64,000 bases of DNA. Source: Clostridiales bacterium (GTDB lineage: Bacteria > Bacillota > Clostridia > Christensenellales > DTU072). Positions 31,868-64,000 of the stretch are shown here, one piece after another (positions within the stretch are counted from its first letter, which is position 1; the number at the start of each line of letters is the position of its first letter). The DNA lies in contig DUUO01000032.1 of assembly GCA_012841525.1 (NCBI GenBank), positions 6,166 to 70,165 on the forward strand. Reading direction: 5' to 3'. A program made the position numbers and the translations under genes. The notes beneath the pieces were generated by a model. The model was not told the DNA's origin, ran no database searches, and saw nothing but the letters and a program-made list of their open reading frames with translations.

Positions 31868-32133
31868 GTATCGCAATCAAAATAAATAGACATACAAAAA
31901 ATTATATTTGATATCGCAATTAATAGACTTAAGAAAAAGCATATTTTATATCGTAAAAAAGTTAATTTAATTACAAAAAAAGCATATATAATTTAGTAAA
32001 AAAACTATGTGATTTTAAATGAAAATATATAAAGTCTGAAATTTATTTAAAACACAACATATAGTGTAGTAAGGGATAAATTGACAATATAGGTTGTTTT
32101 TTGGTATATTTATTTAAGTTACAAGGAGGACAA

Positions 32134-41345: not shown

Positions 41346-41704
41346 TCATTTTTTTTATTATAAGAAATATAAGGTTAATAGTCAATTATATTGCTTGTAT
41401 TCATTTGTAGTTTTAATTAATTTAAGTAATTGTGAAAGTAAATATAAAAATAAAGCAAAATACTAATTTTACTGGTACTTCTAAGTAGCAGGGCTATGGA
41501 AAATAAAATATAGCAATAAAATCGAATGATAAACTTAAAAGGTGATTTTTAAATAACGGGTTATTACAAAAATAAATAAAAATATAATTAAAACATCAAT
41601 TTTTATAGTTAAATCTTAAGTAAAATGTTTTTGTTATGTATGCTTTTCTTGACAAAATTATTTGTGTGTTAGATAATCAATGTGTAAATTTTTTAGGAGA
41701 GAAA

Positions 41705-45537: not shown

Positions 45538-46134
45538 ATGACTATTGATGAAATAGTAGTAGCAAGTAATAATTTAAATAAAATAAAAGAAATAAAAAAG
45601 ATTATTGGTGATGAGATAAATCTTTTTTCTTTGCGTTCTATTGGTTTTAATCAAGAAATTGAAGAAAATGGGAGCACTTTTTATGAAAATGCTTTAATAA
45701 AAGCAAAAACAGTTGCTAATTTTATTGATAAACCAGTACTTGCCGATGACAGTGGCTTGGTAGTCCCATATTTAAATGGTGATCCAGGTGTTTGTTCTGC
45801 AAGATTTGCAAGTTTACATGCAACTGATAAAGAGAATAATGATAAGTTGCTCTCATTGTTAGGTAATACCGATGATAGAAATGCAAAGTTTGTTTGTGAA
45901 TTAGTTTTATTATTTCCAAATGGTAAAATTTTGCATGCAACTGGTGAAGTAAGTGGCTATATATTAAGATCGCCTAAAGGTAATTTTGGCTTTGGCTACG
46001 ATCCATTATTTTACTCTTATGAACTTAAAAAAACTTTTGCCGAAGTAACTGATGAAGAAAAAAATTTAGTAAGCCATAGGGCAAGAGCAGTAAAATCATT
46101 GCTTTCCAAAATCAAAAAATTAAATGATTTGTAA
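45538..46134 (+). CDS. rdgB: Non-canonical purine NTP pyrophosphatase (RdgB/HAM1 family)
   Basis: VVASNNLNKIKEI, DDSGL, FGYDP and SHRARA motifs. Confidence 0.85.
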   Translation: MTIDEIVVASNNLNKIKEIKKIIGDEINLFSLRSIGFNQEIEENGSTFYENALIKAKTVANFIDKPVLADDSGLVVPYLNGDPGVCSARFASLHATDKENNDKLLSLLGNTDDRNAKFVCELVLLFPNGKILHATGEVSGYILRSPKGNFGFGYDPLFYSYELKKTFAEVTDEEKNLVSHRARAVKSLLSKIKKLNDL

Positions 46135-46338
46135 TACCAGATACATTTTTTTTCAAATTTAGTTAATCTATTGAATTTTTTTAATTGTTGTAATTATGTA
46201 TCCATAGCTACAATACAGTAGTTTATATTCGGATTAATAACCTTTTGGAATATTTTTTTAATACCTAATAAAATAAAAATATTTATTTTTTTATTGCACT
46301 CTCTCAAAATTAGATTGAAGTCTGTATAGTTCGATTTA

Positions 46339-46650
46339 TGTGAGTTTAGAATCAAAAAAATTTATATGTGTAAAACATTATTTGTTTTCTTAATTTTTGC
46401 AATTAATGTTGTAGATGGTTTGATTGTATTTGTGCATTTTGGAAAAGTTATTACAAATTTTTTATTGTGTGGTAAAGCATAATGTGATTTTGTTCTACTG
46501 AGGATAATTCAAATAAAAAATATTAATATTTTGTGATACTTTGAATTTTTAAAAATGTTAAGTTGTGAATTTTTTTTGTTTTACATTATTGCAATAATTT
46601 TTGTAAAATTTATACTTTCATTTTTGTTTTTTTTATGTGAAATAATGTGA
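46339..46650 (+). promoter_or_regulatory. Six same-strand TGTGA-core direct repeats in the long AT-rich region upstream of the giant gene
   Basis: WWTGTGAWWT cores sit at 46339, 46483, 46532, 46564, 46636 and 46646, all on the + strand. Confidence 0.3.
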
Positions 46651-46697
46651 AATTATATGAATTTTATATTTATTAGAATAAATTTATGTTGGCAATT

Positions 46698-46726
46698 TTG
46701 CATTGCTTACTCTAATATATTATAAT
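46698..46726 (+). promoter_or_regulatory. Putative sigma-70-type promoter of the giant gene
   Basis: TTGCAT (46698-46703), then 17 nt, then TATAAT (46721-46726), 37 nt upstream of ATG 46763. AT-rich DNA produces many -10 look-alikes. Confidence 0.45.
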
Positions 46727-46762
46727 GATAACAATTAAAGGTGCATAAGGGAAAACTATAAG

Positions 46763-49700: not shown

Positions 49701-52700
49701 AAGTTCAAATCAAAGTTGCACCAAATATTTTTGAAAGACAAGGTTATGAGTTTTTAGGTTGGTCAACTTCATCTAGTTCAACATTACCAGATGCTAACTA
49801 TGGAGTAGGATCATATCTAAATACTCAAGGACACACTTATAATGTTTCAAGTTCTGGAGTTATAACAAGAAATAAGGCGCCGATAACTTTATATGCAGTT
49901 TGGCAAAGGATAGGTCGGGTAGTAGCATCTTATGATGTCTTTGTTGGAAATTTAAATGAAGACGGAGGAATTTATTTTAGACCAAGAAACACAAAAGTTA
50001 GGACAGGAGCTTACTATCTTCCTAACAATCCACAAACAGATCAAAATTTTGATTACAAAGGTTTTATCAGAAGTACAAACGCTCCCAGTATTTATCATTT
50101 AAGCCACGATTCATTAATTAAAATTGCAAATACAAATCACGATTATAATGCAATATATAGTTATAAAGATGGTAATGGAGATTCTATTTTGTATCCATAC
50201 ATAAGTGGTATACCAGAAGGCAATACGGAAATTACGCAAAATTTAATTTTTTGTTATATTTGGGAATTGAATGCTCCAAGTGTTGAGGCAACAGATAAAG
50301 AAGTTGTATATGGAACTCAGGTTAATTTGAAGGATTGTTTAAATTTTGCAAGTATTCCAGCATCAGATATCGCAACGCATGCAACATATAAAATTTCAAA
50401 CGGAAAAGATGCAGATGAGGGCACTGGTTGGAAACGCAACAATAATTTAATTACAGATAGTTATAATGGTAATGAATATTACTGGAGAGATCCTATAAAC
50501 AACAGAGGTGTCATCTTCGAGCATATTGAAAGTTCTGCATATAATCCGGCAAATATTTTTCAAGCATCAATATATTATCAAAAAAACATGGGCAATAATA
50601 TTGTTTTGACTAGTGTTAACAATAATGCCATAAATGGTGGTTTACGAGTTTATATTTATCCTATTGTTTTGGAGGTTTCATTAAATACAACAAATGAAAG
50701 AACATATGACGGAACTGCACAAAATCCTTATTTTGATATCGAAGTAAAATCTGAAAATCAAGTTGTTGCGCCAAATGCTAGCATTAGTAATGTGTATGCA
50801 AATGAGTTAGAAAATATTAATAATAACTTTAACCATTTAGATAAAGGCTTGAAATTCATCATATCCTATAAATATAAGAACTTTATTGATTCAGAATCTG
50901 AAATTTTTGATTCTGGAGTAAAAGAATTCAAAAATGCTGGTACATATACTATTAATTCTTTGAAGCCAATCTATGATCAAACAGATCAACATTTGGAAAT
51001 CAATAACTATAACTACGTCTTCAAAGTTGTAGGCGATAATCAGTCTGCAAACAGTATATATAATGTAAATCCTATGCATAATTTAACATTTGCAAGAGAC
51101 TTAAAAGACACAACTGAAGTTGATATGCAATCAAAAAATTTAGATGTAGTTTTGTTATATACTAAGAAAGCATACGGTACTACGGCATTTGAAAACACGA
51201 AAGAGATTGTAAATGAAATATCTGCTCTTTTAGAACTTTCTCAAGAAACAAGTCACTGGTTAATGTTTTTAGACGGAATAACTCAAGCAGATTTACAATC
51301 ATCAAATACTGTTGATGCATTGAAAGTGTTATTAGTAAGACAAGGATATGATGCTTCTGCAAATGAAACAAGTTGGCTAAGTGCACCAGCAGATGATACT
51401 GATCCCGTTAAAGATTATAATGGGAATATTTTGTATTATGAAATTGCTCTAAGAGCAAATAAACTATTAAAAGAAACATATTTAAGTGATGCATCTGATC
51501 CATATAATGCAGTTTATAAAGCACTAGCAAACAATTATAATTTTTCAGCAGGCTCACTTGATTATTCGGATTATTTAGTAGAGGAATATGCTGAATTAAA
51601 AGAAATCCTTAATTTTTATAATATTTTTGCAGATCAAAATACAGAAAAGAAGGAAATTAATTATAGGGGAACAAATGAACAATGCTTTGTTGGAGTATAT
51701 GATAAAAACGCAGAAGGAGAAGGATCACAAAAAGGTGTTTGGCTTGAGATTTCACAACTAGAAATCAATATAAATTGGACTACACCAGATTTAACATATA
51801 ATGGTTTAGCACAAGGTAAAACAGGTACAATTACGGGGATATTGCCAAATAATGAAGTGGATTTTTATGTTGAAAATGCAAATGGTAATATTTCCCTAGG
51901 TACAATCTCTGGTAGTGGAACACCACAAATTACTAATTTAACTAGTGTTGATGCTGGTTCATATTATGCAAAAATAGCAATTGCAAACAATAACTATGTC
52001 TTAGCAAATGGCGATGAGGTAGAGTGGACAATTAAAAAAGCACAAATTAACTTTGTTTCCACATCTGGATATGTAACAGGCGGTTCATATAACTCAGATG
52101 GTGAATTATTATCTGGAGATTTTTCTCAAAAATCTTTTACAACTGATAACATTTATGAGGCTAGCAAAGATTACGGATATAAATGGGATATATCAGGAAT
52201 TATGCAAGGAGACAGCGTATCGTTCCAAATTGCAAGATATAACAACACCTCTTTTTCACATGACGGTAATGAAGCTTTCCCACCAGGTATTAGTGGAAAT
52301 ATAAAGGTTATGACTAGTTATTTGACTGGACAGAATTGCGTTGATGATAATCCTACATTAACATTGACAAATTTAAATGGAGGTTCAACTTTAACACGCT
52401 ATTTCTTAGCGCATAATGTTGGAAGTTATTACTTTAGAATTGCAGGAAGTATATCAGATATGAAAAATCCTTCAAGTACTGCAAAATATACAAAGTCTGC
52501 TCCAATAGGAAAAGAAATTGATGGAGAATTTTTAGAAAGTGATTGGAGAAATTATTACATAGGCCAATATACCAATGATTATACTGAACATAGTTTCATG
52601 ATAACCAAGAGAGCTTTAAGCTTAAGTTGGCAAGATGTAGAAGAAAAAACATATAATGGAGATTATCAAGAAATTCTTGCTTTTTATGTTTTAGGACTTC

Positions 52701-55700
52701 AAGGACTTGATGAAGTTAAATTAAAATTAAGATTTCCTGAAGGAATGCAAATGGTTGAGGAAGAGACCGAAGATCATGTTGTCGAAGATCCAACAACAGT
52801 TATTCCTCCTAATTTAACAAAAGATTATGAAATGAATAAAAACATATTGTCATCTAGTCTATATTCAATTAGGGCAAAAGATGCAAAAACATATGGTATT
52901 GCCGTTTTACAATTAGAGGGAAAACATAAAGATAATTATGACTTTTTGACGGCACAAAAAGAGGCTACAATACTTAAAAAGATGCTTTTATTTGAATGGA
53001 GTGATGAATTTAATGATAAAGATAATGGTAGATATGTATATGAGAAAGGCTACATAGGGCCAAAGCTAGAAATTTCAAATATTCAAAGTCAAAATAATGT
53101 GTTAGACTCCATTAAACTTTATATAAACTTGCCAACTGGCATAAAGTTCCAAACTCAAATCAGAGATTCTGATACTAATCAATTTGTAAATACTGATATA
53201 ATTACTCCTTCACCTACAAATTCACCAATAGACTATGAGACATTAGTCAGTATGACAAATTCAACAAATGATAGTTTTTATAGGTTTTTAGCAAGAGATG
53301 CTCTAGCAAATGCTGGTTCATATAAAGCAACAATTGTTCAAATTTCTGGAGAACATGCATCTAATTATACTCTTGCTAATGTTGAAAATCTTTCAAAGGA
53401 ATTTATTATTTATCCAAAACCCATTACCTTAAATGCAACTAGCGAGACTAATTTTACATATAATGGACAAAGTCAAGGAGTAACTATTACTGCATCAGCA
53501 GGTGATATATATTCTGGTGATGTAGTAACTTTTGTTGTTCCATCACAAGGGGCAGGATCTAATCAATATGATTATTCCGGAAACAATGTTTCAAAGCCAG
53601 ACTATATTCCAGGTGCAAATAGTCATATGTTTAAGGCTGTATATGTTGCTAATTATAGAGTAGTGATTTATGGTTCTCAAAATAATAATTATTTCATCAA
53701 ATTGACAGATGATACCATAGTAAGTTCAACAAATCCATATACATTAGATTTTCGAATCAACAAATTAAAAGTTGGTTTGACTTGGGGAGTTTTATTGTTT
53801 ACCTATAATGGAAATATTCATACATTAAGTCTTCCCACAATAAACAATAAAATTACAGGCGAAGATGTAAATTTAAGTTGGAATGATGGCGTAGGTTATA
53901 CTCATGCTGAAAAAAATAAGGGTAACTATGTTGCAAGAATTTCAAATAGTTTAACAGGAACGCATGCAGATAACTATACTTTGGAAGGTGTTATTTTGAC
54001 CAAAAATTGGGAAATTGTACCAAAATTATTAACATTCACATTTAATTTGCCAGATCCTACACCAATATATTCTAAAAACTTCATAGAGTCTGCAAGTTTG
54101 GGTATTAACGGAATTTGTGCTGGGGATAATGTTAAATTGAAAATCAATGCAACTGCTGGTATAAAGATGCAATATAATAATGTAGATTACTTCAATCCAG
54201 CGATTACGTCAAATGGCTTTAATGTGACCACACCACTTGTAACCGCTGATGTAGTATATAAACTACTTGCGCAAAATGCAGGAAGTTACAATATAACAAT
54301 TGATGCAAATTCTATCCAAGGAGATTCGGCAGAAAACTATAAAATTGATGTAACTTATGCAAAAACATTTTCAATTAATAAAAAGGTCGTATCAATTAAT
54401 GCATGGTATGTAGGAGATTTTGTTTACGGCTCCAATACAAATGTAATATATAACAGTGCCCATAACCAATTTACATATGACAATACTAATAAAAAAGTAA
54501 CAGCAGGTTATACGATTGCTAACTCGGGTGTGATACTTCCTAATGATGGAAAAGTATATTATGGAGATAATTTGAGTCTTTCTTATACACCATCAGAGGG
54601 ATATCAATTAAATATCCAAAAAAATGCAGGCACATACAACTCAATAGTTCAAACCACAAACATAAACTATAAACTTAAAGAGGAAAAATTAACGCTTGAA
54701 TGGAAAATTAATCAAGCAACAGTTAACATTCAATTTATTGAAAAAGTAAATAGAAAAATTTCAGACTTTAATTATACATATTCTGGTGCAGAGCAAGGCT
54801 TGTATATAAAATTTACGGGTATTGCATCTGAAGATTATATTAAAGCGACGGTTGAAAAAGTAGGGAATTTTAGCGTATCAGGAGTTTTAACTGGAGAAAC
54901 TGAAATTGAAAATAATGTTAGTTATGAATTTTCTGCAAAACATGTAAATTATGATACTGTTAATAATGTGGTAATACCATATGTTGTTAAAATTACTCAA
55001 GTTTTTGATTCAAAAGGTCATACTGGCGTTAATTCTAATTATAAATTTACTGTTAATTTCCCAGTTAATAAAGAATTTACAATAAATCCCGTTGTTTTAG
55101 ATTTTACATGGGGGGCTGATGAAATTACTTACACAGGAAGCGAAATAGAGTATCCATTGCCTACAATCACTAATTTGGTCCCAGCAGATCAATCTAGAAT
55201 TTATTTAATTAAAAATGAAACTCTTTCATCTCCTAATTTATGGAAGGCAACTGCTGTAGGTACATATTATGCACATTTATCAGAAAATGTTGGTGTAATT
55301 GGTAGCAATGGATTATATGACTATGTAATGCCAACCGAATCAGATCCTAACTTTAATAAAATGGTAAAAGAGTGGAGAATTGTAAAGCGCATTATTGAAA
55401 TTTCACAATTTGAATCATTTGAGTTGACATATAATCAAACATTCCAGATTGCAAAGATATTAAAAATTACAGGATTACAAAATGCAAACGATGATATTAA
55501 AATAAAGTTTAGATTATCTGCTAATTTGAAAGTAAATAATTATAGTGCAGAAGATCAAGAAATTGGTGCATCTATAATAGGTGCTGATGATTATGTAACA
55601 CCTTCACTAAATAATTATGTAATGATATCTTCTCTTACTGCCGATGCAACAACAATTGCAGGACAACTGATAGCAGTGCAAGCAAAATATGGACAAGTAG

Positions 55701-58700
55701 CGCCATATCAAGTGTCAGCATTAAGTTTAGAAAGTGAGGATGAGGCTGCTGCAAACTATGAATTAAGTCAAGTATCTTTTAATTTCAATGTTGCTCAAAA
55801 AACTATCAATGTAGTAGATTGGTATATTGATGATGTTGGACAGACAAAATATACATCCTCTTCATTTGTTTATGATGGCAGTTCAAAATCAGTTTATCCT
55901 AAAGGTCCTAATGGTTCTAATTTAGATTTTATAGCTGGTGATAATGTTTCAATTATTTATGCTGGACATTCAAATTCACAAATAAATGCAGGAACATATA
56001 CAACAACAATTACTTTAGGCAGCGATTTGATTAGTGCAAGTTATAAACTAGAAGGAAATACTACATTAACTAATTGGATTATTGCAAAAAGGCAAATTTT
56101 ATTAAGTTGGAGTGGAGATGCATCTACAACATGGCAAACTGAAGAAATGATTTTAGTTACAACATATGATAGTAATGATCACCATATATTTGCAAATATT
56201 TTAAATAAAATTGCAACAGATGATGTCAGTTTTGTTTATAACACTAATGCTACTAATAAAGATGTTTCAACTACACCATATTCTAGAACAATTACTGGCC
56301 TTAGTGGTTCTAAAAAAGATAACTATACTTTAGATGGAGTTGATAATCTAACCAAACAATGGAAGATTTTACAAAGAACAATAAAATTTGTTTGGGATCC
56401 AAATCAAACTATGACATATAATGGAGATTATCAAGGTGTAAAACTAAATATTGAAAACATTGCAGGTAACGATGTTTTATCATTTATGTTTGATGCAACT
56501 GATAAAGTTAGAGGGACAAGTGTATCCAATTGTTATGTTTCAACTGATGATGCTAATGACACCATAAGTGTTACTAACACTGGCGTAGTTTTAAGTGTCA
56601 ACTTTGAGGCAAAAGATTATGGTGCATATACTGTATCAATCAACGAAAATACAGGAATCACTGGAGTTAAAGCAGGAAACTATAATTTAACTGGACAAGT
56701 GCTTTCAAAAACTTGGACAATAGGAAAAAAACAAATTACATTTGATGTTACATCTGAAAGTCCATTTACATATTTTGCACAAAATGAACAAGGTATTTTG
56801 GTCAAAGTAAATGGTATTGTTTCAGGAGATAATATAGTTTTAGAGACAAGCACAGCAGGTGGTGCTTTAACTACAAATGAATTAAATGATGTAGTAGTAA
56901 ATTCAACAACAAATTATAACTTAAAGGCTATAAATGCTGGCACATATGATACTGTTGTTAATGCAATTTCTGGCTCTTCTGCTAATAACTATCAAATTCC
57001 AGTTGCATTACCATCTAGGACATTTTCATTTGTTATTAACAAAAAGCTTATAGAAATTATTGATTGGTACGTTGGAGACTTTAATCCAGATGGCGGAAGT
57101 GTTTTATATAATTCAAACTCATTTGTTTATGATGGAACAAGTAAAAAGGTAACAGCAGGATTTAATATTGGTGCAGAAAGTGCAAATGATAAAAAAGTTT
57201 ATGACAGTGATAAATACACCATTTCATTGCTATATAACACTGGTGAAAACCCAAATATTCAAATTAATTCGGGTACATATAATACAAAAGTTAATTTAGC
57301 AAATAGTATACCAAGTGCAAACTATACTTTATCTTCCACAGATCCAAAATTAACATTGTCATGGCTTATTTCTCAAAGAGTTATTGATTTAACTTGGCCT
57401 TCGACTTTATTGTTTGTTTATGATGGAAATCAAAAAAATATCAATGCAACTATATCTAACATAGTATCTGGCGATACGGTAGGCCTTGTTTATCAAAATA
57501 CTGGAACAACTGAAATAGGTGGAGAGACTTATACATATACAAACTCTGCTATTAATTCAGGTAAATATATTTCTAAAGTTATAGAGTTAGTTAACAATAC
57601 AAACTCAAATTACAGATTACCTTTAGAAAGTGAAGCAGCACTTTATGAAAAACTATCAAAGCAATGGGAAATTACTAAACGAGAAATTTTGATAAGTTGG
57701 AGTGGTGCAGATTCGTTTGAATATAATGCAAATTGGCAAGGTACAGAGTTATCTGCTTCAAACTTTATAGCATCAGAAAGCATAGCATTGATGCTAGATA
57801 TAACTAGTGAAAATCCTGTCAATGTAACTTCAACAAATGCTTCCGTTAGTGGTAGCAAACCTAATTTTGTGCTCACATCAGAACAATTATCACTTAATGC
57901 AAATATAGAGGGCAAAAATGCTGGTACTTTTCAAGCAGATCTTAGACTGGCTGATTCATATACTAAAAACTATGTTTTAACTGGAAATCTTCAAAAGATC
58001 TTCAATATTACTAAAAAGATTATTTCTCTAGCATGGTCTGGTCCAAATTCGTTTATATACAACACTGAAAATCAAGGTGTTTCTTTAACCGTTTCAGGAA
58101 TTTTAGGAAGCGACGCTAATTTAGTGGAATTTATGCTAACAATTGTTGGCCAAATTTCTTTAATTGGCGCAGGCATTATTACAACTGGTCAAAGAAAACT
58201 AAAAAATGGTGTTCATAATTTTGTTGCAAAAGATGCAGGGGTATATTCTGTTAAAGTTGGAGAAAATCTTTTGGGTGAAAGTGGTGCTAATTATACTTTA
58301 ACAATATCTCCAACTGATACTTGTCAATTTGTAATTGCTAAGAAAAATATAACCATTCCAAATTGGTATATCTCCACATATACATTAGGTGGAAGCAATA
58401 CTAAATACACCAATTCTTCATTTACATATGATGGTAGTGCAAAAACAGTTGTTCCAGGATATTTAGGTGGGGCAACTCTAGCCAATGATGGAAGGTTTTA
58501 TACTTCTGATTTAAGTGAAAATATGTCCGATGCCTTCGAATTTAATGAAGCTTCAGATTCTAACACTCAAATCAATGCAGCTTCATATACAACCGAAGCA
58601 AGGCTTTCTGAAAGCTCACCTCTAAATACAAATTACTTAATAACTGCAGGAGCGGTATTAAATTGGTTGATAAGTCAAAAAACTATTACTGTATCATTTA

Positions 58701-61700
58701 CTGGTAGTTCAATATTTACATACAATGGACAAAATCAAGGAATTGCTGCAGTAGTTAATGGAATTGTTGAAACTGAACAAGTTAAATTAACTACAGTAAC
58801 TAATGTTGAAACAAAAGGATTTGATTCAACAATTTCAATATCAAATGGAACATATAACTTCCATAGTAAAAATGCTGGCAATTACAGTGTATCGATAACT
58901 GGCGTTGATAATGCAAATTATAAATTAGAAAATCCTCCAATTATTACTGACTTTACTATTTCAAAATTAACTATTCAATTATCTTGGGGCAATACAACAT
59001 TTGAATATAATGCATTCGAACAAGGGCCAAGTATACCTACAATTTCAAATTTGATTGCTAATGATACTGTTTCGTTAAGTTGGGATGATAATACAACTTA
59101 TACTCATTTAGAGACAAATAAAGGAAATTATGTTGCAAAAATTTCAGAAGAACTATCTGGGACAAGCTCTGAAAACTATACATTATATGGTGTTACATTA
59201 ACTAAAGATTGGAAGATTGTAGCAAAGAAAATTACATTTACATTTACTTCAGAAAACTTAACATATTCAGGTAATTTTGCTCAAATAGGAACAATGGAAG
59301 TTGTTGGTGTATATGCAAGTGATACCGTGAAAATAAATGCAAATGTTTCACCAGGTGTAAAATTGCAATATAACTTAGATGATTATTTTGATGTTGCAAA
59401 TGGAACGAGTCCTGGTGGCTTAGTTCCTACTACAGGTTTGCACTCTGGTGTTACATATGGAATTTTTGTAAAAGATGCAGGCTCATATAATTTTGTTATC
59501 AATACAAATGCTTTGCTTGAAAGCCATCCAACAAATAATAATTATGAAATTGCAACCACATATTCACAAACCTTTACGATGCAAAGAAGAGAGTTAAGCA
59601 TAACATTTAGTGAATATTATCAAACATATTTATCAGCATATAGTTATGAATATTCTGCAAATTACCAAGGTGTTAGAGCAGAAATTTCAAACATTGTTTC
59701 TGGTGAGGAAATTTATATACATTTTAATGTAACTGGTGGATCACCAATTAAAATCTATACAGATTATAGTTCAAATAATTTCGCAAATGATTTAGGAAAT
59801 GTTTCAAATGTTCAAACAAATGGTAATGCTAATTTTGATGTTGGATTTACCGCGGTTAATTATGGAAATTATACGGCATCAATTACACATATAATCGATA
59901 CAAATGGTGTTTCTAGTGTAACTGGTGGAAACTATAGTTTGCCTACAACAAAATCTCAAAGCTTTAATATTGAAAAGAAAACCCTAACAATTAATTGGCA
60001 AACAACAACAACTTATGTATATGACAAAACAGTAAAATCTGTTGTAGCAACTGCTGGTGGATTAATTAGTCCTGATGTTGCATCGTTTGTATATGATGAA
60101 ACTAATGAACTTCAAGATGGAAGAAATCTTCAGTCTTCGGCTATAAATTATGGATTATATCGTTCACTTATTATAGGTCTTACTGCTGAATCAAACATTA
60201 ACTACAAATTACCAACAATTAATTTATCAAAAGATTGGCAGATTGATCAAAAGGTTGTTGATATAATTTGGCCATCAACTTTATCTTTCGTTTATGATGG
60301 AACTTCAAAGAGTGTAAATGGGACCGTTTCTAACATAATATCTGGTGATAATATAAGTTTAGTTTATCAAGACGAAGGATCAATAGATATTGGTGGAGTA
60401 ACATATTTGTATAACAATGTTGCAATTCCTGCAGGAAAATATATTTCAAAAGTTATAGCACTAGATAATAATGAAAATTCAAACTATAGATTGCCTTTAG
60501 AAAGTGAAACGGTGCTTTATGAAAAACTATCAAAGCAATGGGAAATCACAAAACGTCAAATAAATATAAGCTTTAGTGGTAGTTCAAACTTTACATATAA
60601 TGGTCAAAATCAAGGAATTGATATTGTATTTTCAAATCTTGTTGCAAATGATTGTGCTGACAATACACTTCAAATAACTATTAATGTATCTGATGGGGTA
60701 AATTTAATCAATATACCAATTGAAACGTCGGGCAATTCTAATAATTTTACTTATCAAGTAAGAGAAATCGATGCAGCAACATATAATATATCATTTGTTT
60801 CTATGGAAAATACAAATTATGTTATTGATCTAACTCAACAAGCATCATTTACCATTTCTAAAAAAGTTTTGACATTAGATTTTGAAGAATTGTTTACACC
60901 TGGAATGAAAAAAGGCAGTTATGAATATACCTACTCAAAAGGTGAACAAGGAATAAGTTTTTCATTAAATGGTATTCTAAAACGAGGGGCATCTTTAGAG
61001 TATGAGGATGTTACACTAAATGCAAGTAGCAACACTCCAGTTTCAAATAGTACATTTAACAATACTTTTGAAGGAGCAAAAACAGACACTATTAGCGGAA
61101 GTTTAACTGCCATAAATGTAATTGATGGTCAATATCTTGCTAATTTTTATATTAATCATAAAAACTATACACTAGACAATTTAACAAACTCAATATCTTG
61201 GAAAATTGCTAAAAAGGAAATTGATATTAAAATATTAACTTTAGAAGATGCTGATTATACCGACACTTCTTTCTATTACGATGGCACAACAAAAGGTATA
61301 AAAGCTATTCCTCAATATAGCGAAGTAGACGTAAATACCAGCAATCCTGGTGTTTACTTTGGAGACAATGTAAACTTTGTATATGCTGGCACGCGTCAAG
61401 CAATTAATGCAAACACATACAATGCTACTGTCAATATGGCCTCTTCACTTCCATCTTCAAATTACTATGTAAACCAAAATGTAATATGGAAGATAAATCA
61501 AAAAGCTGCAATTATTTCTTGGGTTGGTAAAAATAATTTAGCAGACTGGTCATATGCTGATATGCCAAAAGTTATCTATGATGGCACACCTCACAATATT
61601 ATTGCAGTTGTTTCAAATGCAATCGCAGGCGATAGCTTTACATTCACATATACAGGCAGCGAAGATCAAGTTAATGTGAACTTAGATGGAAATCCATATT

Positions 61701-64000
61701 CAAGAACATTAACTGATGTTGGTAACACTAACTATACAATTTTAGAGTCATCAAATTTAACTCAAACATGGGAAATAACACCTAAATCACTTGTTGCAAA
61801 TTGGAGTGGAGAATCACAATATGTATATGCCAACAGTTTATTCGGTCCAACATTAACAATTTCAGGTTTAGTGGGCAGTGATACAATTTCTTATGATGCT
61901 ACAACAAAAATTACAAACAGTAGTGATAGCATTATTGCAAACAATGTTGCAAATTCTTCAGTTGTTGAAATCTCTCAAGATCCTCAAGTCTTTAGAGTTA
62001 ATGCATTGAGTGCTGCAACTTTTTCTACAAAATATCAAGCAAGAGAATATGGCTTATATGAAATTACAAATGTTTCTCTTGTAGATTCTACTGTTTCTAG
62101 AAACTATACTCTTTCTGTTGATACATTCCAATGGACAATAGGGAAGAAAACAATTATCTTTACTTTTGAAGGGAATACTTCGCTAATTTATAATGCTAAA
62201 AATCAAGGAATAAGTATTAAAATATCTGAAGATTCGATATATGAAAATCCTGCAAATACTAGCGGTTTTGATGAAGTGACACTAAATTTAACACTGCTTG
62301 GTAATTTTGAAATAGGCAATGCTCAAATTCAAAATATCGAAAATGATGGTATTTATGAATACTTTGGTAAAAATGTTGGAACTTATAAAATTACTGTTCA
62401 AGATTTAATAACTGGACAAGATGGGCACAATTATGAACTTAGCTCTACAAACATAAAAACTATAACATTTACAATTATTCCAAAAGAAATTTATATTTCC
62501 AATTGGTATATTGGCAATTTTGTTCAAGGCTCTACTGAAAACATTGTATATGATAAAGTAAATCACAATCAATTTACATATGATAATACTAATAAAGTAG
62601 TTACACCAGGATATGAAGTTGGTGCAACAAGTGATGATGATTATAAAGTTTATACACAAGATGCTGGAATGATTACCTTTGAATATTTATCAGATAAGGA
62701 TTTAAATATACAAAAAAATGCTAACGAATATGAAACAACTCCTAAAACTTTATCTACTGGCGTTAGTGCAAACTATGTTGTTGTTTCAAATTCTACAAAT
62801 CCATCTACATTAATATGGAAAATTAACAAGGCAACGGTAACATTAACTTTATCTCCAAGTACACCTCCAACTTATACATATAGTGCCCAAGAACAAGGAA
62901 TATCTTATGAAATTACAGGTATAGCAGCAAATGATACGATTTCACTTGATGTAGATTTTGTCGGACCATTTACTACAAGAGGATTTTTAAGTGGTGAAAG
63001 CCTTGCACAAAATACTACATATATGTTCAAGGGTAGAGATGTATATTTATCTGATGGTGCAGTACAATCATATGAAATTAAAATAAATTCATTAACAGAT
63101 AGCAAAGGAAACATTTCAACAGGAGCAGATTGCAACTATATCTTAGTAAAAACGGATGCTTCATTTATGATTACTCAAAAAACTGTAACGGCAATTTGGG
63201 GAACATATAATTACATATATAACGGTCAAGAACAATCTGTTTTAATGCCACAAGTAAGCGGAAAGTTAAATGGTGATATTGTAGGTTTTTCATTTACATC
63301 AGATTCAGTTAATAAAGCAATAAATGCAGGAACATATACAGCAAAAGTTTCCTCTACACTTATTGGTGAAAGTACATCTAACTATTCATTTGATGGCTCA
63401 CAATTAATTTGGAAAATTGCTACGAAAGAAATTAATTTAGTTTGGGAAGATGATCCAAATGAAACATTATTAACTGATGACTTTTCATATACATATACTG
63501 CAAAACTTATCGGTGTTAGATTATCTTTATTAGGTTTAATTGAGGGTGAAAGTGCATCTGTCAAATATGCAAATGATGGACTTGTCAGCACCACATCCAA
63601 TTATAATGCTAGTGGTATAACACCAGACATAAATAACGTTGATAAACATTATTTTGCTTCAATTAATGCAAGTGAAGGTCAAAATATTTCATATTATGGA
63701 ATTAAAATTACTGAAATTGATGATGAAAATTATCATATTAATCCTTTAAGCAGTAAGACAAAATCGTGGGCTATTGTTAAGAAAACATTAGATTTATCAT
63801 TTACATACACATCTAATGCAGAAGTTGTATATGATGGGTTAAATCATGGAGTAATATTGACAATAGCAGGTATTCAAACTAATGAAAATTCAGTTTTAGA
63901 TGAATTAACTCTATCTTATACTGCTACTAGTGGACTTAACCCAAGCGTTGAAAATTCTAATCCATTTGCAATTGAAAATACTAGCTATACATTCAATGCA
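46763..64000 (+). CDS. Giant repetitive surface protein, 3'-open (at least 5,746 aa in window): signal-anchor, non-repetitive head with three Listeria-Bacteroides-type repeats, then ~35+ tandem Y(D/N)G..AG(T/S)Y..NY modules (MBG/YDG-like adhesin repeats)
   Basis: The frame with codon starts = 2 mod 3 is closed by TAA at 46736-38 and then open to base 64000. The first ATG is at 46763. I hand-translated about 2 kb continuously and spot-checked 50.64, 50.70, 52.08, 53.76-54.04, 55.02, 57.36-57.69, 58.02, 58.92-59.25, 60.24-60.56, 61.02 and 63.96 kb without finding a stop. N-terminus is MFAKSKINNKFKNRFIFATLVVFLFFIVLASF. It is absent from the track, presumably because no stop lies inside the window. 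Confidence 0.9.
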   Translation, partial: MFAKSKINNKFKNRFIFATLVVFLFFIVLASFNFQHITNNFNFGKNIVAEAAGGANGTGRNSAVFYEFTTANLGNMIEFFPKNGFGENEVNKVGYISSAPTHDEDLSFMPFVDPNVIGYKIDSGKQDVYTWMKFKLSREMVALRRMDSLTISVKSHFWTTGYPDGGFLALGIPGLDQDDITYENFILSQPETFFQVMGEQSTLGWPGGNTKIYLDTTVMSYLGDESDEYFYLFANTKTNHNHTSTHGQFEITLNFTSGNSYKLANNAISIDGSPIPRENIGGEIKYRWNNSGNFATVTNTGESENLFWSQHNDILNLQATKDVEGYRFLGWAIFTSKLTFKPVIDVLGINPNVESDLALQNVKNKTQEALEGLAQWIPGDDDVDNLTNRLNLRRSSATGYVVPLEGSHIYAIYAPVYFKLEYRPGEAGNFANVIKRAPPFARYKTGSTDIFPDSDYALLSWEDTSSPANSYAPETSYVFPIVPQINTFDDGYITSTTTYVLIAKWTLVAGEAGAGVTATPYRRVFHDRYVDMYYRIELSGGLSIDKVFVKFNSGDLKNQYIMMDKDPDPNEPNGYIVPYASGSFTILASVTKETYNITYYYPSWSCSPSDSQKKYIPGIGLSSADLPIPTRYGYKFIGWRLNSYSGEIIKTNDQLKNLTGDISLYAYGEKVSTNAVTISDVESFNKYMEFSIDASSYVSYRDQKYDSGFGDHQNHDHFVLNGLNYQSVSKGGIYASNANESGDAIGHGWKSTNTGGTVSMRGDYYISFEGTALQYIRMGAKVEVYATADLDVGSGRNSHITSGYQGSAAMRFGIRKGQTSNNSDEGMFNWNGTIDDYSYKSDEGSYKMTPELAVKSAGWHLNSNHWRYDNVNAASAATDTDPLILDEDCAGVTISLFARFFDEHSSVWYANYARARNMKVYVRFSEGLVETNKVIYKGNGGQIPSTEMNEYSQTFGTTVDTPNYYSTQAQRNRVIEIRNKVQIKVAPNIFERQGYEFLGWSTSSSSTLPDANYGVGSYLNTQGHTYNVSSSGVITRNKAPITLYAVWQRIGRVVASYDVFVGNLNEDGGIYFRPRNTKVRTGAYYLPNNPQTDQNFDYKGFIRSTNAPSIYHLSHDSLIKIANTNHDYNAIYSYKDGNGDSILYPYISGIPEGNTEITQNLIFCYIWELNAPSVEATDKEVVYGTQVNLKDCLNFASIPASDIATHATYKISNGKDADEGTGWKRNNNLITDSYNGNEYYWRDPINNRGVIFEHIESSAYNPANIFQASIYYQKNMGNNIVLTSVNNNAINGGLRVYIYPIVLEVSLNTTNERTYDGTAQNPYFDIEVKSENQVVAPNASISNVYANELENINNNFNHLDKGLKFIISYKYKNFIDSESEIFDSGVKEFKNAGTYTINSLKPIYDQTDQHLEINNYNYVFKVVGDNQSANSIYNVNPMHNLTFARDLKDTTEVDMQSKNLDVVLLYTKKAYGTTAFENTKEIVNEISALLELSQETSHWLMFLDGITQADLQSSNTVDALKVLLVRQGYDASANETSWLSAPADDTDPVKDYNGNILYYEIALRANKLLKETYLSDASDPYNAVYKALANNYNFSAGSLDYSDYLVEEYAELKEILNFYNIFADQNTEKKEINYRGTNEQCFVGVYDKNAEGEGSQKGVWLEISQLEININWTTPDLTYNGLAQGKTGTITGILPNNEVDFYVENANGNISLGTISGSGTPQITNLTSVDAGSYYAKIAIANNNYVLANGDEVEWTIKKAQINFVSTSGYVTGGSYNSDGELLSGDFSQKSFTTDNIYEASKDYGYKWDISGIMQGDSVSFQIARYNNTSFSHDGNEAFPPGISGNIKVMTSYLTGQNCVDDNPTLTLTNLNGGSTLTRYFLAHNVGSYYFRIAGSISDMKNPSSTAKYTKSAPIGKEIDGEFLESDWRNYYIGQYTNDYTEHSFMITKRALSLSWQDVEEKTYNGDYQEILAFYVLGLQGLDEVKLKLRFPEGMQMVEEETEDHVVEDPTTVIPPNLTKDYEMNKNILSSSLYSIRAKDAKTYGIAVLQLEGKHKDNYDFLTAQKEATILKKMLLFEWSDEFNDKDNGRYVYEKGYIGPKLEISNIQSQNNVLDSIKLYINLPTGIKFQTQIRDSDTNQFVNTDIITPSPTNSPIDYETLVSMTNSTNDSFYRFLARDALANAGSYKATIVQISGEHASNYTLANVENLSKEFIIYPKPITLNATSETNFTYNGQSQGVTITASAGDIYSGDVVTFVVPSQGAGSNQYDYSGNNVSKPDYIPGANSHMFKAVYVANYRVVIYGSQNNNYFIKLTDDTIVSSTNPYTLDFRINKLKVGLTWGVLLFTYNGNIHTLSLPTINNKITGEDVNLSWNDGVGYTHAEKNKGNYVARISNSLTGTHADNYTLEGVILTKNWEIVPKLLTFTFNLPDPTPIYSKNFIESASLGINGICAGDNVKLKINATAGIKMQYNNVDYFNPAITSNGFNVTTPLVTADVVYKLLAQNAGSYNITIDANSIQGDSAENYKIDVTYAKTFSINKKVVSINAWYVGDFVYGSNTNVIYNSAHNQFTYDNTNKKVTAGYTIANSGVILPNDGKVYYGDNLSLSYTPSEGYQLNIQKNAGTYNSIVQTTNINYKLKEEKLTLEWKINQATVNIQFIEKVNRKISDFNYTYSGAEQGLYIKFTGIASEDYIKATVEKVGNFSVSGVLTGETEIENNVSYEFSAKHVNYDTVNNVVIPYVVKITQVFDSKGHTGVNSNYKFTVNFPVNKEFTINPVVLDFTWGADEITYTGSEIEYPLPTITNLVPADQSRIYLIKNETLSSPNLWKATAVGTYYAHLSENVGVIGSNGLYDYVMPTESDPNFNKMVKEWRIVKRIIEISQFESFELTYNQTFQIAKILKITGLQNANDDIKIKFRLSANLKVNNYSAEDQEIGASIIGADDYVTPSLNNYVMISSLTADATTIAGQLIAVQAKYGQVAPYQVSALSLESEDEAAANYELSQVSFNFNVAQKTINVVDWYIDDVGQTKYTSSSFVYDGSSKSVYPKGPNGSNLDFIAGDNVSIIYAGHSNSQINAGTYTTTITLGSDLISASYKLEGNTTLTNWIIAKRQILLSWSGDASTTWQTEEMILVTTYDSNDHHIFANILNKIATDDVSFVYNTNATNKDVSTTPYSRTITGLSGSKKDNYTLDGVDNLTKQWKILQRTIKFVWDPNQTMTYNGDYQGVKLNIENIAGNDVLSFMFDATDKVRGTSVSNCYVSTDDANDTISVTNTGVVLSVNFEAKDYGAYTVSINENTGITGVKAGNYNLTGQVLSKTWTIGKKQITFDVTSESPFTYFAQNEQGILVKVNGIVSGDNIVLETSTAGGALTTNELNDVVVNSTTNYNLKAINAGTYDTVVNAISGSSANNYQIPVALPSRTFSFVINKKLIEIIDWYVGDFNPDGGSVLYNSNSFVYDGTSKKVTAGFNIGAESANDKKVYDSDKYTISLLYNTGENPNIQINSGTYNTKVNLANSIPSANYTLSSTDPKLTLSWLISQRVIDLTWPSTLLFVYDGNQKNINATISNIVSGDTVGLVYQNTGTTEIGGETYTYTNSAINSGKYISKVIELVNNTNSNYRLPLESEAALYEKLSKQWEITKREILISWSGADSFEYNANWQGTELSASNFIASESIALMLDITSENPVNVTSTNASVSGSKPNFVLTSEQLSLNANIEGKNAGTFQADLRLADSYTKNYVLTGNLQKIFNITKKIISLAWSGPNSFIYNTENQGVSLTVSGILGSDANLVEFMLTIVGQISLIGAGIITTGQRKLKNGVHNFVAKDAGVYSVKVGENLLGESGANYTLTISPTDTCQFVIAKKNITIPNWYISTYTLGGSNTKYTNSSFTYDGSAKTVVPGYLGGATLANDGRFYTSDLSENMSDAFEFNEASDSNTQINAASYTTEARLSESSPLNTNYLITAGAVLNWLISQKTITVSFTGSSIFTYNGQNQGIAAVVNGIVETEQVKLTTVTNVETKGFDSTISISNGTYNFHSKNAGNYSVSITGVDNANYKLENPPIITDFTISKLTIQLSWGNTTFEYNAFEQGPSIPTISNLIANDTVSLSWDDNTTYTHLETNKGNYVAKISEELSGTSSENYTLYGVTLTKDWKIVAKKITFTFTSENLTYSGNFAQIGTMEVVGVYASDTVKINANVSPGVKLQYNLDDYFDVANGTSPGGLVPTTGLHSGVTYGIFVKDAGSYNFVINTNALLESHPTNNNYEIATTYSQTFTMQRRELSITFSEYYQTYLSAYSYEYSANYQGVRAEISNIVSGEEIYIHFNVTGGSPIKIYTDYSSNNFANDLGNVSNVQTNGNANFDVGFTAVNYGNYTASITHIIDTNGVSSVTGGNYSLPTTKSQSFNIEKKTLTINWQTTTTYVYDKTVKSVVATAGGLISPDVASFVYDETNELQDGRNLQSSAINYGLYRSLIIGLTAESNINYKLPTINLSKDWQIDQKVVDIIWPSTLSFVYDGTSKSVNGTVSNIISGDNISLVYQDEGSIDIGGVTYLYNNVAIPAGKYISKVIALDNNENSNYRLPLESETVLYEKLSKQWEITKRQINISFSGSSNFTYNGQNQGIDIVFSNLVANDCADNTLQITINVSDGVNLINIPIETSGNSNNFTYQVREIDAATYNISFVSMENTNYVIDLTQQASFTISKKVLTLDFEELFTPGMKKGSYEYTYSKGEQGISFSLNGILKRGASLEYEDVTLNASSNTPVSNSTFNNTFEGAKTDTISGSLTAINVIDGQYLANFYINHKNYTLDNLTNSISWKIAKKEIDIKILTLEDADYTDTSFYYDGTTKGIKAIPQYSEVDVNTSNPGVYFGDNVNFVYAGTRQAINANTYNATVNMASSLPSSNYYVNQNVIWKINQKAAIISWVGKNNLADWSYADMPKVIYDGTPHNIIAVVSNAIAGDSFTFTYTGSEDQVNVNLDGNPYSRTLTDVGNTNYTILESSNLTQTWEITPKSLVANWSGESQYVYANSLFGPTLTISGLVGSDTISYDATTKITNSSDSIIANNVANSSVVEISQDPQVFRVNALSAATFSTKYQAREYGLYEITNVSLVDSTVSRNYTLSVDTFQWTIGKKTIIFTFEGNTSLIYNAKNQGISIKISEDSIYENPANTSGFDEVTLNLTLLGNFEIGNAQIQNIENDGIYEYFGKNVGTYKITVQDLITGQDGHNYELSSTNIKTITFTIIPKEIYISNWYIGNFVQGSTENIVYDKVNHNQFTYDNTNKVVTPGYEVGATSDDDYKVYTQDAGMITFEYLSDKDLNIQKNANEYETTPKTLSTGVSANYVVVSNSTNPSTLIWKINKATVTLTLSPSTPPTYTYSAQEQGISYEITGIAANDTISLDVDFVGPFTTRGFLSGESLAQNTTYMFKGRDVYLSDGAVQSYEIKINSLTDSKGNISTGADCNYILVKTDASFMITQKTVTAIWGTYNYIYNGQEQSVLMPQVSGKLNGDIVGFSFTSDSVNKAINAGTYTAKVSSTLIGESTSNYSFDGSQLIWKIATKEINLVWEDDPNETLLTDDFSYTYTAKLIGVRLSLLGLIEGESASVKYANDGLVSTTSNYNASGITPDINNVDKHYFASINASEGQNISYYGIKITEIDDENYHINPLSSKTKSWAIVKKTLDLSFTYTSNAEVVYDGLNHGVILTIAGIQTNENSVLDELTLSYTATSGLNPSVENSNPFAIENTSYTFNA
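51750..64000 (+). repeat. In-frame tandem array of ~290-380-bp coding modules inside the giant ORF, with ~1.3-1.45-kb higher-order periodicity
   Basis: Recurring pattern: [KR]-x-[IL]-x-[ILV]-x-W ... (F/V/T)-Y-(D/N)-G ... SGD/AGD ... (N/K)AG(T/S)Y ... NY-x-L ... W-x-I-x-K-[KR]. Hand alignments of distant modules give 52/94 identities (53762-54043 vs 58964-59245) and 74/107 identities (57368-57688 vs 60242-60562), both ungapped. Confidence 0.8.

What the first reader, a model, noticed from the sequence alone, without database searches (positions are those of the whole stretch)
51750..64000. Higher-order (about four-module, 1.3-1.45 kb) organisation and block duplications inside the repeat array
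**Module spacing.**
- Reading the frame, the Tyr anchor of the (F/V/T)-Y-(D/N/S)-(G/A) motif recurs about 35 times between roughly 52.65 and 63.83 kb. Mean spacing is about 330 bp, or about 110 aa.

**Subtypes recur in register.**
- One subtype starts with ..(N/D)-W-Y-(V/I)-x-(D/N/T)-(F/V/Y).. and then has F-x-Y-D-G-(S/T)-x-K. Its TGG-TAT sits at 54404, 55820, 57065, 58364 and 62504.
- The spacings are 1416, 1245, 1299 and 4140 bp (the last is about 3 x 1380). Degenerate counterparts appear near 59.98 and 61.23 kb.
- A second subtype has L-S-W-(N/D)-D..Y-T-H-x-E-x-N-K-G-N-Y-V-A-(R/K)-I-S..NYTL. It occurs at 53762-54043 and 58964-59245, with 52/94 identical residues, ungapped, offset 5202 bp.
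- A third subtype has W-P-S-T-L-x-F-V-Y-D-G..N-Y-R-L-P-L-E-S-E..L-Y-E-K-L-S-K-Q-W-E-I-T-K-R. It occurs at 57368-57688 and 60242-60562, with 74/107 identical residues, ungapped, offset 2874 bp.

**Interpretation.**
- The array seems to have grown by duplicating multi-module blocks rather than single modules.
- Copies have since diverged to roughly 55-70% amino-acid identity. At that divergence the array would be relatively stable against recombination.
- The ordered heterogeneity suggests a structural super-repeat rather than a simple beads-on-a-string stalk.
Basis: seen in the sequence. Interest (0 to 1): 0.65.

Follow-up and report, generated by a model that had tools for sequence, protein, structure and literature searches.

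The report
Four-module repeat blocks in giant protein
A giant bacterial surface protein carries at least 37 divergent Ig-like modules arranged in old four-module blocks, which is a real but ordinary result of ancient block duplication, plus one later single-module overwrite.

Summary
One open frame runs from 46739 (ATG at 46763) off the window end, more than 5,754 aa. From 51770 onward it holds 37 homologous modules of 83-166 aa.

Module order is not random. Similarity peaks at lags of 4, 8/9, 13, 16/17 and 25 modules. The collinearity statistic has z = 5.7. Five-module collinear runs link M12-16 with M16-20 and with M29-33. One module type ("A") recurs every fourth module, with one five-module irregular stretch (M24-M28).

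Block duplication is therefore supported, but it is ancient:
- An orthologue in a biogas Clostridiales MAG is collinear at 64% identity.
- 36 of 37 modules there have the positional orthologue as best match (58-79%), against 27-55% for the best paralogue.

The "55-70% identity" figure fits only two pairs; the median over all pairs is 26%.

Related giant proteins have their own periods (2, 4, 5) built from different module types. This argues against a conserved structural super-repeat.

The modules are divergent YDG/MBG-like, all-beta units. This is a new member of a known kind, of modest interest.

The parts
46763..64000 (+). Giant open reading frame, cut off by the window end (more than 5,746 aa from the ATG). 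The N-terminus is a basic stretch followed by a hydrophobic stretch (MFAKSKINNKFKNRFIFATLVVFLFFIVLASF), read as a signal peptide or signal-anchor.
   Evidence: The frame is open from 46739 to 64000. It is collinear with L002 over aa 412-5754 at 63.8% identity in a single HSP.
46763..51769 (+). Non-array N-terminal region of about 1,670 aa. It contains Listeria-Bacteroides (Flg_new) type segments.
   Evidence: Pfam Flg_new E = 5.8e-8 at aa 624-666 of the ATG-numbered protein. The GY.F.GW motifs were read from the translation.
51770..64000 (+). Array of 37 homologous modules (M01-M37, the last one truncated), 83-166 aa each. Consensus: ..TY.G...G......G....D ... NAG.Y ... NY.L ... W.I.KK.I.
   Evidence: Iterated HMM, all domain E-values between 1e-9 and 1e-27. 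Alignment A1.
54446..55843 (+). Unit U1 = M08-M11, order A-E-b-d.
55844..57100 (+). Unit U2 = M12-M15, order A-B2-C-D.
   Evidence: Five-module collinear runs with M16-20 and M29-33.
57101..58399 (+). Unit U3 = M16-M19, order A-[replaced B]-C-D.
58400..59620 (+). Unit U4 = M20-M23, order A-G-B1-D.
59621..61249 (+). Irregular five-module stretch M24-M28 (C-B3-B3-G-F). It shifts the phase of the period by one module.
   Evidence: Lag peaks move from 4/8/16 to 9/13/17/25. Type assignment.
61250..62548 (+). Unit U6 = M29-M32, order A-B2-C-D. M29 is type A but has no preceding WY.
   Evidence: The order is kept in P0081.
62549..63799 (+). Unit U7 = M33-M36, order A-E-B1-F.
   Evidence: M07-09 is collinear with M32-34.
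57395..57673 (+). Tract within M17 (about aa 3553-3645) that is M26-like rather than orthologous: a single-module replacement, or gene conversion.
   Evidence: M17 is 70% identical to M26 and 71% to the orthologue's O26, but its local alignment to the positional orthologue O17 covers only 73 aa (35 identical, score 102 against 371-376). The M17+M26+O26 clade has 100% bootstrap. The flanks return to orthology at about aa 3549 and 3643.
60263..60565 (+). M26, the module whose lineage supplied the sequence now at M17.
53777..54037 (+). M06, type B1, an old paralogue of M22 (55% identity).
   Evidence: M06 against O06 is 72%, so the duplication predates the species split. The 6+22 clade has 100% bootstrap.
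58979..59236 (+). M22, type B1, paralogue of M06. The adjacent M23 pairs with M07, giving a two-module block at lag 16.

Best explanation
The region encodes the repeat stalk of a giant secreted or surface protein of a low-GC Clostridia bacterium. The gene is more than 5,750 aa in the window and more than 7,900 aa in the orthologue.

**Shown**
- The stalk is a chain of at least 37 divergent, all-beta modules related to the YDG/MBG repeats of bacterial adhesins.
- The array grew long ago by tandem duplication of multi-module blocks, most clearly a four-module block A-B-C-D. The copies then diverged to about 26-35% identity.
- Since then the array has been inherited nearly unchanged. A species 64% identical keeps the same 37 modules in the same order with nearly the same lengths.
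- The one later event seen is a non-reciprocal replacement of exactly one module (M17) by a copy of M26. It is bounded by the conserved W-x-I-x-K/Q-K/R-x-I motifs at the module edges.

**Inferred**
- The four-module period is a historical footprint of block duplication, not a conserved structural period.
- The protein works as a long rod that spaces terminal domains away from the cell.
- Low identity between neighbouring modules helps both folding and genetic stability.
For: **Module array and family**
- 37 modules found by iterated HMM.
- 11 of 37 modules weakly match Pfam YDG (best E = 1.5e-4), 6 match MBG_2, 5 match MBG.
- The module HMM hits P0002 at E = 1e-39. P0002 carries a Pfam YDG domain at E = 2.5e-13.
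- A profile search of the PDB gives the LAR_0958 adhesin repeat 4ng0 at E = 0.1, aligned over its full length.
- The four-module AF2 model is all-beta (pLDDT 72, pTM 0.59). Its best Foldseek hits are tandem Ig chains, such as titin Ig81-83 at E = 1e-5.

**Block duplication**
- Lag profile peaks and collinearity z = 5.7.
- Collinear runs M12-16 with M16-20, M12-16 with M29-33, and M07-09 with M32-34.
- Type A clade has 85% bootstrap.

**Antiquity and stasis**
- A single 5,399-column HSP to L002 at 63.8% identity.
- In 36 of 37 orthologue modules the best match is the window module at the same position.
- 35 of 37 M/O pairs are sisters in the tree, with 94-100% bootstrap.
- Module lengths correlate at r = 0.96 between the two species.
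- P0081, at 38% identity, still reads A-B-C-D-A-E with best hits M29 to M34 in order.

**Single-module replacement**.

**No recombination substrate**: the longest exact DNA repeat is 22 nt and there is no TRF array.

**Neighbour identity**: mean 26%, maximum 39.6%.

**General precedent**: domain repeats often expand several domains at a time (PMC1553488).
Against: - No module reaches a Pfam gathering score, and the whole-protein scan gives nothing in the array at E < 0.01.
- The single-module model (pLDDT 94.6) has no Foldseek PDB match, best E = 1.2. Assignment to YDG/MBG therefore rests on weak and transitive sequence links.
- Deep relations among the long C and D modules are poorly resolved, with bootstraps of 1-56%. 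Only parts of the duplication history can be read.
- The direction of the position-17 change is inferred from the A-B2-C-D pattern, not from an outgroup.
- The surface or stalk role is inferred. The C-terminus lies outside the window and no anchor was seen.
Confidence: 0.8

Rival explanations
1. The four-module period is a true structural or functional super-repeat, as in titin or nebulin. The ordered A-B-C-D types would be kept by selection because the rod needs a fixed period of about 430 aa, for example to match a periodic partner or to pack side by side.
For: - Type-specific features are conserved in both species. Examples are the I-x-I-x-N-W-Y linker before five of six A modules, the A-type insertion (..ANDGKVY..D), and the short B modules without the central insertion.
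- Module lengths correlate at r = 0.96.
- The order is kept in three lineages, down to 38% identity.
- pTM of 0.59 for a four-domain chain hints at partly defined inter-module geometry.
- P0007 and P0009 also have a lag-4 signal.
Against: - With paralogue DNA this diverged there is little means to shuffle the order, so conservation of order follows from inheritance alone.
- Unit composition varies within the protein: A-B-C-D, A-E-B-D, A-G-B-D, and a five-module stretch.
- Unit lengths vary from 407 to 543 aa.
- Relatives show periods of 2, 3 and 5 as well as 4, and their type strings do not follow ABCD.
- M17 was swapped for another B subtype without loss of the reading frame.
Confidence: 0.12
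2. The apparent subtypes come from ongoing concerted evolution. Frequent gene conversion between non-adjacent modules would create the similarity classes, rather than old block duplications.
For: One clear conversion-like event exists: M17 replaced by M26-like sequence, with exact module boundaries.
Against: - Only 1 of 37 positions departs from orthology.
- Within-type paralogue identity is 28-35%, against 63-69% for orthologues.
- Collinear multi-module runs are the signature of block duplication, not of scattered conversions.
Confidence: 0.05
3. The periodicity is a chance pattern, or an artefact of how the modules were cut.
For: Single-lag tests are modest: lag 4 z = 2.6 (p about 0.014), lag 8 p about 0.026. 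Runs of two or more modules are only weakly enriched: 9 against 5.3.
Against: - Collinearity z = 5.7, reached by 1 of 5,000 permutations.
- Runs of three or more modules are enriched in both species: 19 of 2,000 and 6 of 2,000 permutations.
- The ungapped residue-level dot-plot, which needs no module definition, gives the same diagonals.
- Type A is a bootstrap-supported clade.
Confidence: 0.03

Closest known systems
YDG / MBG domain arrays of bacterial adhesins (Pfam PF18657 YDG, PF18676 MBG_2, PF17883 MBG, PF18887 MBG_3), for example L. reuteri CmbA / LAR_0958 (PDB 4ng0)
   Same: - Tandem modules of about 80-120 aa with a T/F-Y-D/N-G motif near the start and N-Y-x-L near the end.
- Found in very long secreted proteins of Firmicutes.
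- Weak direct Pfam hits, plus transitive links through P0002 (YDG). Hits to the orthologue's downstream part carry MBG_3.
   Different: - No module reaches Pfam's cut-off.
- Many modules are longer, with type-specific insertions.
- The cmbA repeats are described as an intragenic macrosatellite (PMC13339910, title and abstract). Here no TRF array is found and the longest exact DNA repeat is 22 nt.
- No fold match to 4ng0 was obtained.
Domain-repeat proteins expanded by multi-domain tandem duplication (Bjorklund, Ekman and Elofsson 2006, PMC1553488), for example nebulin with units of seven
   Same: The domain-similarity autocorrelation peaks at a lag greater than 1, and there are collinear multi-domain blocks. 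Relatives have different unit sizes, as that paper describes for many families.
   Different: This is a bacterial protein without exons. The blocks are old and imperfect, with one five-module interruption and two unit variants.
Titin Ig/Fn3 super-repeats (own knowledge; structural hits 7ahs and 5jde)
   Same: A long chain of Ig-like beta modules with an ordered, repeating sequence of module subtypes. Neighbouring modules are below 40% identical. Tandem titin Ig domains are the best Foldseek hits for the four-module model.
   Different: There is no evidence of a periodic binding partner. The period is not kept across the family. TM-scores are low, 0.2-0.33.

Membership tests
Pfam YDG/MBG repeat superfamily | A match to a family HMM at or above its gathering score | tested here: not met
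   The whole-protein scan gives no hit in the array at E < 0.01. Single modules: YDG in 11 of 37 (best E = 1.5e-4), MBG_2 in 6, MBG in 5, MBG_3 in 1, all weak.
Pfam YDG/MBG repeat superfamily | Sequence homology to proteins that carry bona fide YDG/MBG domains | tested here: met
   The module HMM hits P0002 at E = 1e-39 over five domains, one of them overlapping its Pfam YDG stretch (E = 2.5e-13) in the same register. Hits to the orthologue's downstream modules carry PF18887.
Pfam YDG/MBG repeat superfamily | A fold like the solved repeat of LAR_0958 (4ng0) | tested here: inconclusive
   The PDB sequence profile hit to 4ng0 has E = 0.1 over the full length. Foldseek with the single-module model (pLDDT 94.6) finds nothing below E = 1.2. 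The four-module model matches generic tandem Ig chains.
Domain repeats expanded by multi-domain block duplication | Similarity between modules peaks at a lag greater than 1, more than module-order permutation gives | tested here: met
   Lag 4 z = 2.6, lag 9 z = 2.6, lags 8 and 17 z = 2.2-2.3. Collinearity z = 5.7.
Domain repeats expanded by multi-domain block duplication | Collinear runs of several modules between distant parts of the array | tested here: met
   Two runs of 5, one of 3, six of 2. Runs of three or more: 3 against 0.44 expected. In the orthologue: 4 against 0.51.
Structural super-repeat (titin/nebulin type) | The same period and the same subtype order kept across homologous proteins | tested here: not met
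   The order is kept only in orthologues. Other family giants peak at lags 2, 3, 4 or 5 and have non-corresponding type strings.
Structural super-repeat (titin/nebulin type) | The period matches a periodic partner or a measured axial repeat | not testable with these tools
   No coordinates, geometry or partner data are available. Only pTM = 0.59 for one unit.
Cell-wall-anchored Gram-positive adhesin | N-terminal signal sequence and a C-terminal LPXTG or other anchor | tested here: inconclusive
   An N-terminal basic-plus-hydrophobic stretch is read from the translation. The C-terminus lies beyond the window, and the orthologue loci are still open at their ends.
Hypervariable repeat (macrosatellite) adhesin genes | Near-identical DNA repeats that allow copy-number change | tested here: not met
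   TRF finds no ~330-bp array. There is one 300-nt repeat at 74% identity, and the longest exact repeat is 22 nt. The module count is equal in two species.

The most novel reading that the evidence does not exclude
The A-B-C-D order is under selection because four modules form one structural period of the rod, roughly 430 aa. This would give a bacterial surface fibre a titin-like super-repeat that matches a periodic ligand or a lateral packing lattice. The exact, in-register replacement of M17 would then show that modules can be swapped only within a positional class.
Probability: 0.1. Interest if true: 0.6.

Novelty: new member of a known kind. Interest (0 to 1): 0.3.

Why it matters
- It gives a clean, dated example in a bacterium of how a very long repeat protein is built. 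Old multi-module duplications were followed by long stasis, and a single in-register module conversion is caught between two lineages.
- Ordered subtypes in such arrays can be read as history. They need not mean a structural period.
- A large family of giant proteins is mostly invisible to Pfam thresholds and to word-based searches. It has 3,493 representatives at E <= 1e-3, many of 5,000-8,000 aa. This matters for annotating Clostridia surface proteins in digester and gut metagenomes.
- It does not open a new kind of mechanism.

Tried and rejected
- **Self-BLASTP of the whole protein** returned only the self-hit, because contained HSPs are culled. It was replaced by an ungapped dot-plot and module-level alignments.
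- **First NJ run** failed because the Kimura correction gave NaN at high divergence. It was redone with a Poisson distance.
- **L001** is a frameshifted low-coverage assembly of the orthologue. It wrongly suggested that M06 was closer to O22 than to O06. The clean L002 removed that artefact.
- **L003** (31% identity) has only about 6 short modules and is not an orthologue, so it cannot serve as an outgroup.
- **The metagenome scan** found only the same species as L002.
- **Search for the orthologue's C-terminus** with the L005 tail found only distant MBG_3 proteins. The anchor remains unknown.
- **MAFFT of sliding four-module windows** staggered the rows (A3). It was replaced by eight non-overlapping units (A4).
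- **One literature search** on 'YDG domain / MBG' returned only bioactive-glass papers.
- **Gene conversion at M06/M22** was considered and rejected. Both copies have 71-72% orthologues.
Full report
**1. What is there**

The window is about 30% G+C, and all but one of its 30 ORFs of at least 150 aa are on the + strand. One frame is open from 46739 to the window end, 5,754 codons, with an ATG at 46763. Upstream lie housekeeping genes: valS, a gyrB/gyrA-like pair, der, an aminotransferase, guaB on the - strand, a GH3 glycosidase and rdgB. This is therefore a bacterial chromosome.

The N-terminus of the giant protein reads MFAKSKINNKFKNRFIFATLVVFLFFIVLASF, a basic stretch followed by a hydrophobic one. 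I read this as a signal peptide or signal-anchor; this is read from the sequence and was not tested. Pfam recognises only one Flg_new (Listeria-Bacteroides) repeat in the first 1,690 aa. It finds nothing in the array at E < 0.01.

**2. Check of the observation**

- An HMM iterated from one module converges on 37 modules covering aa 1678-5754 without large gaps, nt 51770-64000, each 83-166 aa long.
- The consensus is ..TY.G...G......G....D...NAG.Y...NY.L...W.I.KK.I..
- The five in-frame WY positions are exact, and they are the only WY dipeptides in the array. The one at 57065 is TGGTAC.
- The two ungapped identity counts, 52/94 and 74/107, are exact.
- A residue-level ungapped dot-plot gives strong diagonals at offsets of 958, 1734, 1817, 433, 625, 1380, 643, 986 and 2700 aa. 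Window scores range from 83 to 302, against a maximum of 27 in shuffled sequence.

**3. Is the order of modules non-random?**

All-against-all Smith-Waterman scores between modules show three things.

- Mean similarity by index lag peaks at 4 (z = 2.6), 8 (2.3), 9 (2.6), 13 (1.8), 16 (1.7), 17 (2.2) and 25 (1.8). Other lags sit at or below the mean.
- A collinearity statistic has z = 5.7, reached by 1 of 5,000 permutations of module order.
- Using the top 10% of pair similarities, the collinear runs are as follows:
  - M12-16 with M16-20 (lag 4) and M12-16 with M29-33 (lag 17);
  - M07-09 with M32-34 (lag 25);
  - M06-07 with M22-23 (lag 16);
  - M19-20 with M32-33, and M16-17 with M29-30 (lag 13);
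  - M17-18 with M26-27 (lag 9);
  - M07-08 with M15-16 (lag 8).
- Runs of three or more modules: 3 observed against 0.44 expected, reached by 19 of 2,000 permutations.

Clustering gives these types:

| Type | Modules |
|---|---|
| A | 8, 12, 16, 20, 29, 33 |
| B (short) | 6, 22, 35 / 13, 30 / 17, 25, 26 |
| C and D (long) | several subgroups |

The order reads A-E-b-d, A-B-C-D, A-B-C-D, A-G-B-D, then an irregular five-module stretch (M24-28), then A-B-C-D, A-E-B-F. The extra module explains why the lag peaks shift from 4n to 4n+1. Its counterpart at 61.23 kb (M29) is a real type-A module without the WY. The counterpart at 59.98 kb (M25) is B-type.

**4. Related sequences and the age of the pattern**

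*Finding the orthologue.*
- A word-indexed search with M16-19 found only two proteins.
- One of them, P0001, led to a frameshifted ENA contig, L001.
- A scan of GTDB genomes gave L002, from a MAG labelled Clostridiales bacterium AS21ysBPME_203. A JGI scan gave L004 and L005, which are the same species at 99.3-99.96% DNA identity.
- L002 is one open frame across the locus. It aligns to window aa 412-5754 in a single HSP of 5,399 columns at 63.8% identity.
- L005 is open for 7,527 codons, so the gene exceeds about 7,900 aa.

*Module by module.*
- 36 of 37 orthologue modules have the window module at the same position as best match, at 58-79% identity. The best paralogue of any window module scores 27-55%, M17/M26 apart.
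- In an NJ tree of 74 modules, 35 of 37 positional pairs are sisters with 94-100% bootstrap. Type A is a clade at 85%.
- Module lengths correlate at r = 0.96 between the two species.
- A 640-aa fragment from a more distant lineage, P0081, is 38% identical to window aa 4843-5487. It still reads A-B-C-D-A-E, with best hits M29 to M34 in order.

The block duplications are therefore older than all three lineages.

**5. The exception**

At position 17 the orthologue has a short B2-type module with a 12-aa N-terminal extension. It is closest to modules 13 and 30 (42-45% within L002). This makes its units 12-15, 16-19 and 29-32 all A-B2-C-D.

The window's M17 is instead 70% identical to M26 and 71% to the orthologue's O26. 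M17+M26+O26 form a clade with 100% bootstrap. The window sequence follows the positional orthologue up to about aa 3549 and again from about aa 3643. Only the roughly 95 aa in between are M26-like.

This is a non-reciprocal replacement of exactly one module, with edges in the conserved boundary motif. The direction (window lineage derived) is inferred from the unit pattern, not from an outgroup.

The 'second subtype' pair, M06/M22 at 55%, is an old duplication. Each copy has a 71-72% orthologue, and the neighbouring M07/M23 pair makes it a two-module block.

**6. Divergence and stability**

- Median identity over all module pairs is 26%.
- Within-type means are 28-35%.
- Only M06/M22 and M17/M26 exceed 50%.
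- Neighbouring modules average 26%, with a maximum of 39.6%.
- At the DNA level TRF sees no ~330-bp array. There is one 300-nt direct repeat at 74% identity, and the longest exact repeat is 22 nt.

The '55-70%' figure is not typical.

**7. What the modules are**

- Individual modules give weak Pfam hits: YDG in 11 of 37 (best E = 1.5e-4), MBG_2 in 6, MBG in 5 and MBG_3 in 1.
- The module profile finds the LAR_0958 adhesin repeat 4ng0 at E = 0.1 over its full length.
- The module HMM hits P0002 at E = 1e-39. P0002 carries a significant Pfam YDG domain.
- Hits to the orthologue's downstream part carry MBG_3.
- AF2 folds M17 with pLDDT 94.6, but Foldseek finds no PDB match.
- A four-module unit (M29-32) gives pLDDT 72 and pTM 0.59 and is all-beta. 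It matches tandem Ig chains such as titin Ig81-83, integrin legs, the BcpA pilin and Cpe0147, with low TM-scores.

I therefore call the modules divergent YDG/MBG-like, Ig-like units. Formal membership is not established.

**8. Is the four-module period structural?**

A HMMER search of 1.84 billion representatives with the four-module profile finds 3,493 proteins at E <= 1e-3 and 803 at E <= 1e-30. Many are 4,700-8,000 aa long.

| Relative | Main lag peaks (z) | Source |
|---|---|---|
| P0007 | 4 (3.3), 8 (2.1) | |
| P0009 | 4 (5.7), 8 (2.2) | |
| P0008 | 2 (5.2) | |
| P0006 | 5 (4.2) | |
| P0010 | 3 (3.3), 5 (3.2) | |

Their modules, typed against the window's classes, do not follow ABCD. Higher-order repeats are thus a habit of the family, with lineage-specific unit sizes. 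This is what Bjorklund et al. describe for domain repeats in general (PMC1553488).

This favours history over a conserved structural period. Conserved type-specific features, such as the WY linker and the insertions, leave some room for the structural reading. I give it about 0.1.

**9. Verdict**

This is a new member of a known kind, of modest interest.

Noticed in passing
Beyond the window end; L005 aa 5379-7527, island at L005 aa 5616: The orthologous gene continues at least 2,150 aa past the point that matches the window end. About 240 aa past that point lies a conserved Cys-containing island, G[FL]C[TN]CG..HQW..GP.HAG.YW. The same island is found in giants P0006-P0010 and P0020, always after the first long module run. 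Its function is unknown.
   Followed up: partly
window 46763-51769: The N-terminal 1,670 aa hold three GY.F.GW segments of Listeria-Bacteroides repeat type, near aa 333, 640 and 1001 of the frame. Only one is called by Pfam. The same head architecture, including a YDVYTDG-type stretch, recurs in the distant giants P0008-P0010 and P0020.
   Followed up: partly
window 50640-51769: Just upstream of the first HMM module there are module-like motifs, for example ..ERTYDGTAQNPYF.. near aa 1320 and NYNYVFKV. This suggests 2-3 degenerate modules that the HMM does not score.
   Followed up: no
whole array; against 75: The word-indexed search of 5.8 billion proteins found 2 relatives. A full HMMER profile search found 3,493, of which 803 are at E <= 1e-30. 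This family of giant proteins is largely invisible to k-mer prefilters and to Pfam cut-offs.
   Followed up: yes
window 57389-57691 (M17 model): A very confident single-module AF2 model (pLDDT 94.6) has no Foldseek match in the PDB, best E = 1.2. The four-module model does match tandem Ig chains. The sequence module may be offset from the structural domain, or the fold may be poorly represented in the PDB.
   Followed up: partly
window 61200-61260 (M28/M29 junction): M29 is a type-A module, but in both species it lacks the N-W-Y linker that precedes the other five A modules (IKILTLED and ILIYTLDD instead).
   Followed up: partly
window 46000-64000: GC skew falls from 0.2-0.29 over the housekeeping genes to 0.03-0.13 inside the giant gene. 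AT skew stays positive from 48 kb onward. This is a composition shift specific to the repeat gene.
   Followed up: no
window 32101-36636: In the gyrB/gyrA-like pair, the gyrA-like protein scores 763 bits, below the gyrA equivalog cut-off of 902. It passes the general type IIA subunit A subfamily model. It could be ParC/ParE rather than gyrase.
   Followed up: no
window 41636-42880: A 414-aa ORF has only weak, partial matches to the CofE (F420-0:glutamate ligase) models, E = 2e-10 and far below the cut-off.
   Followed up: no
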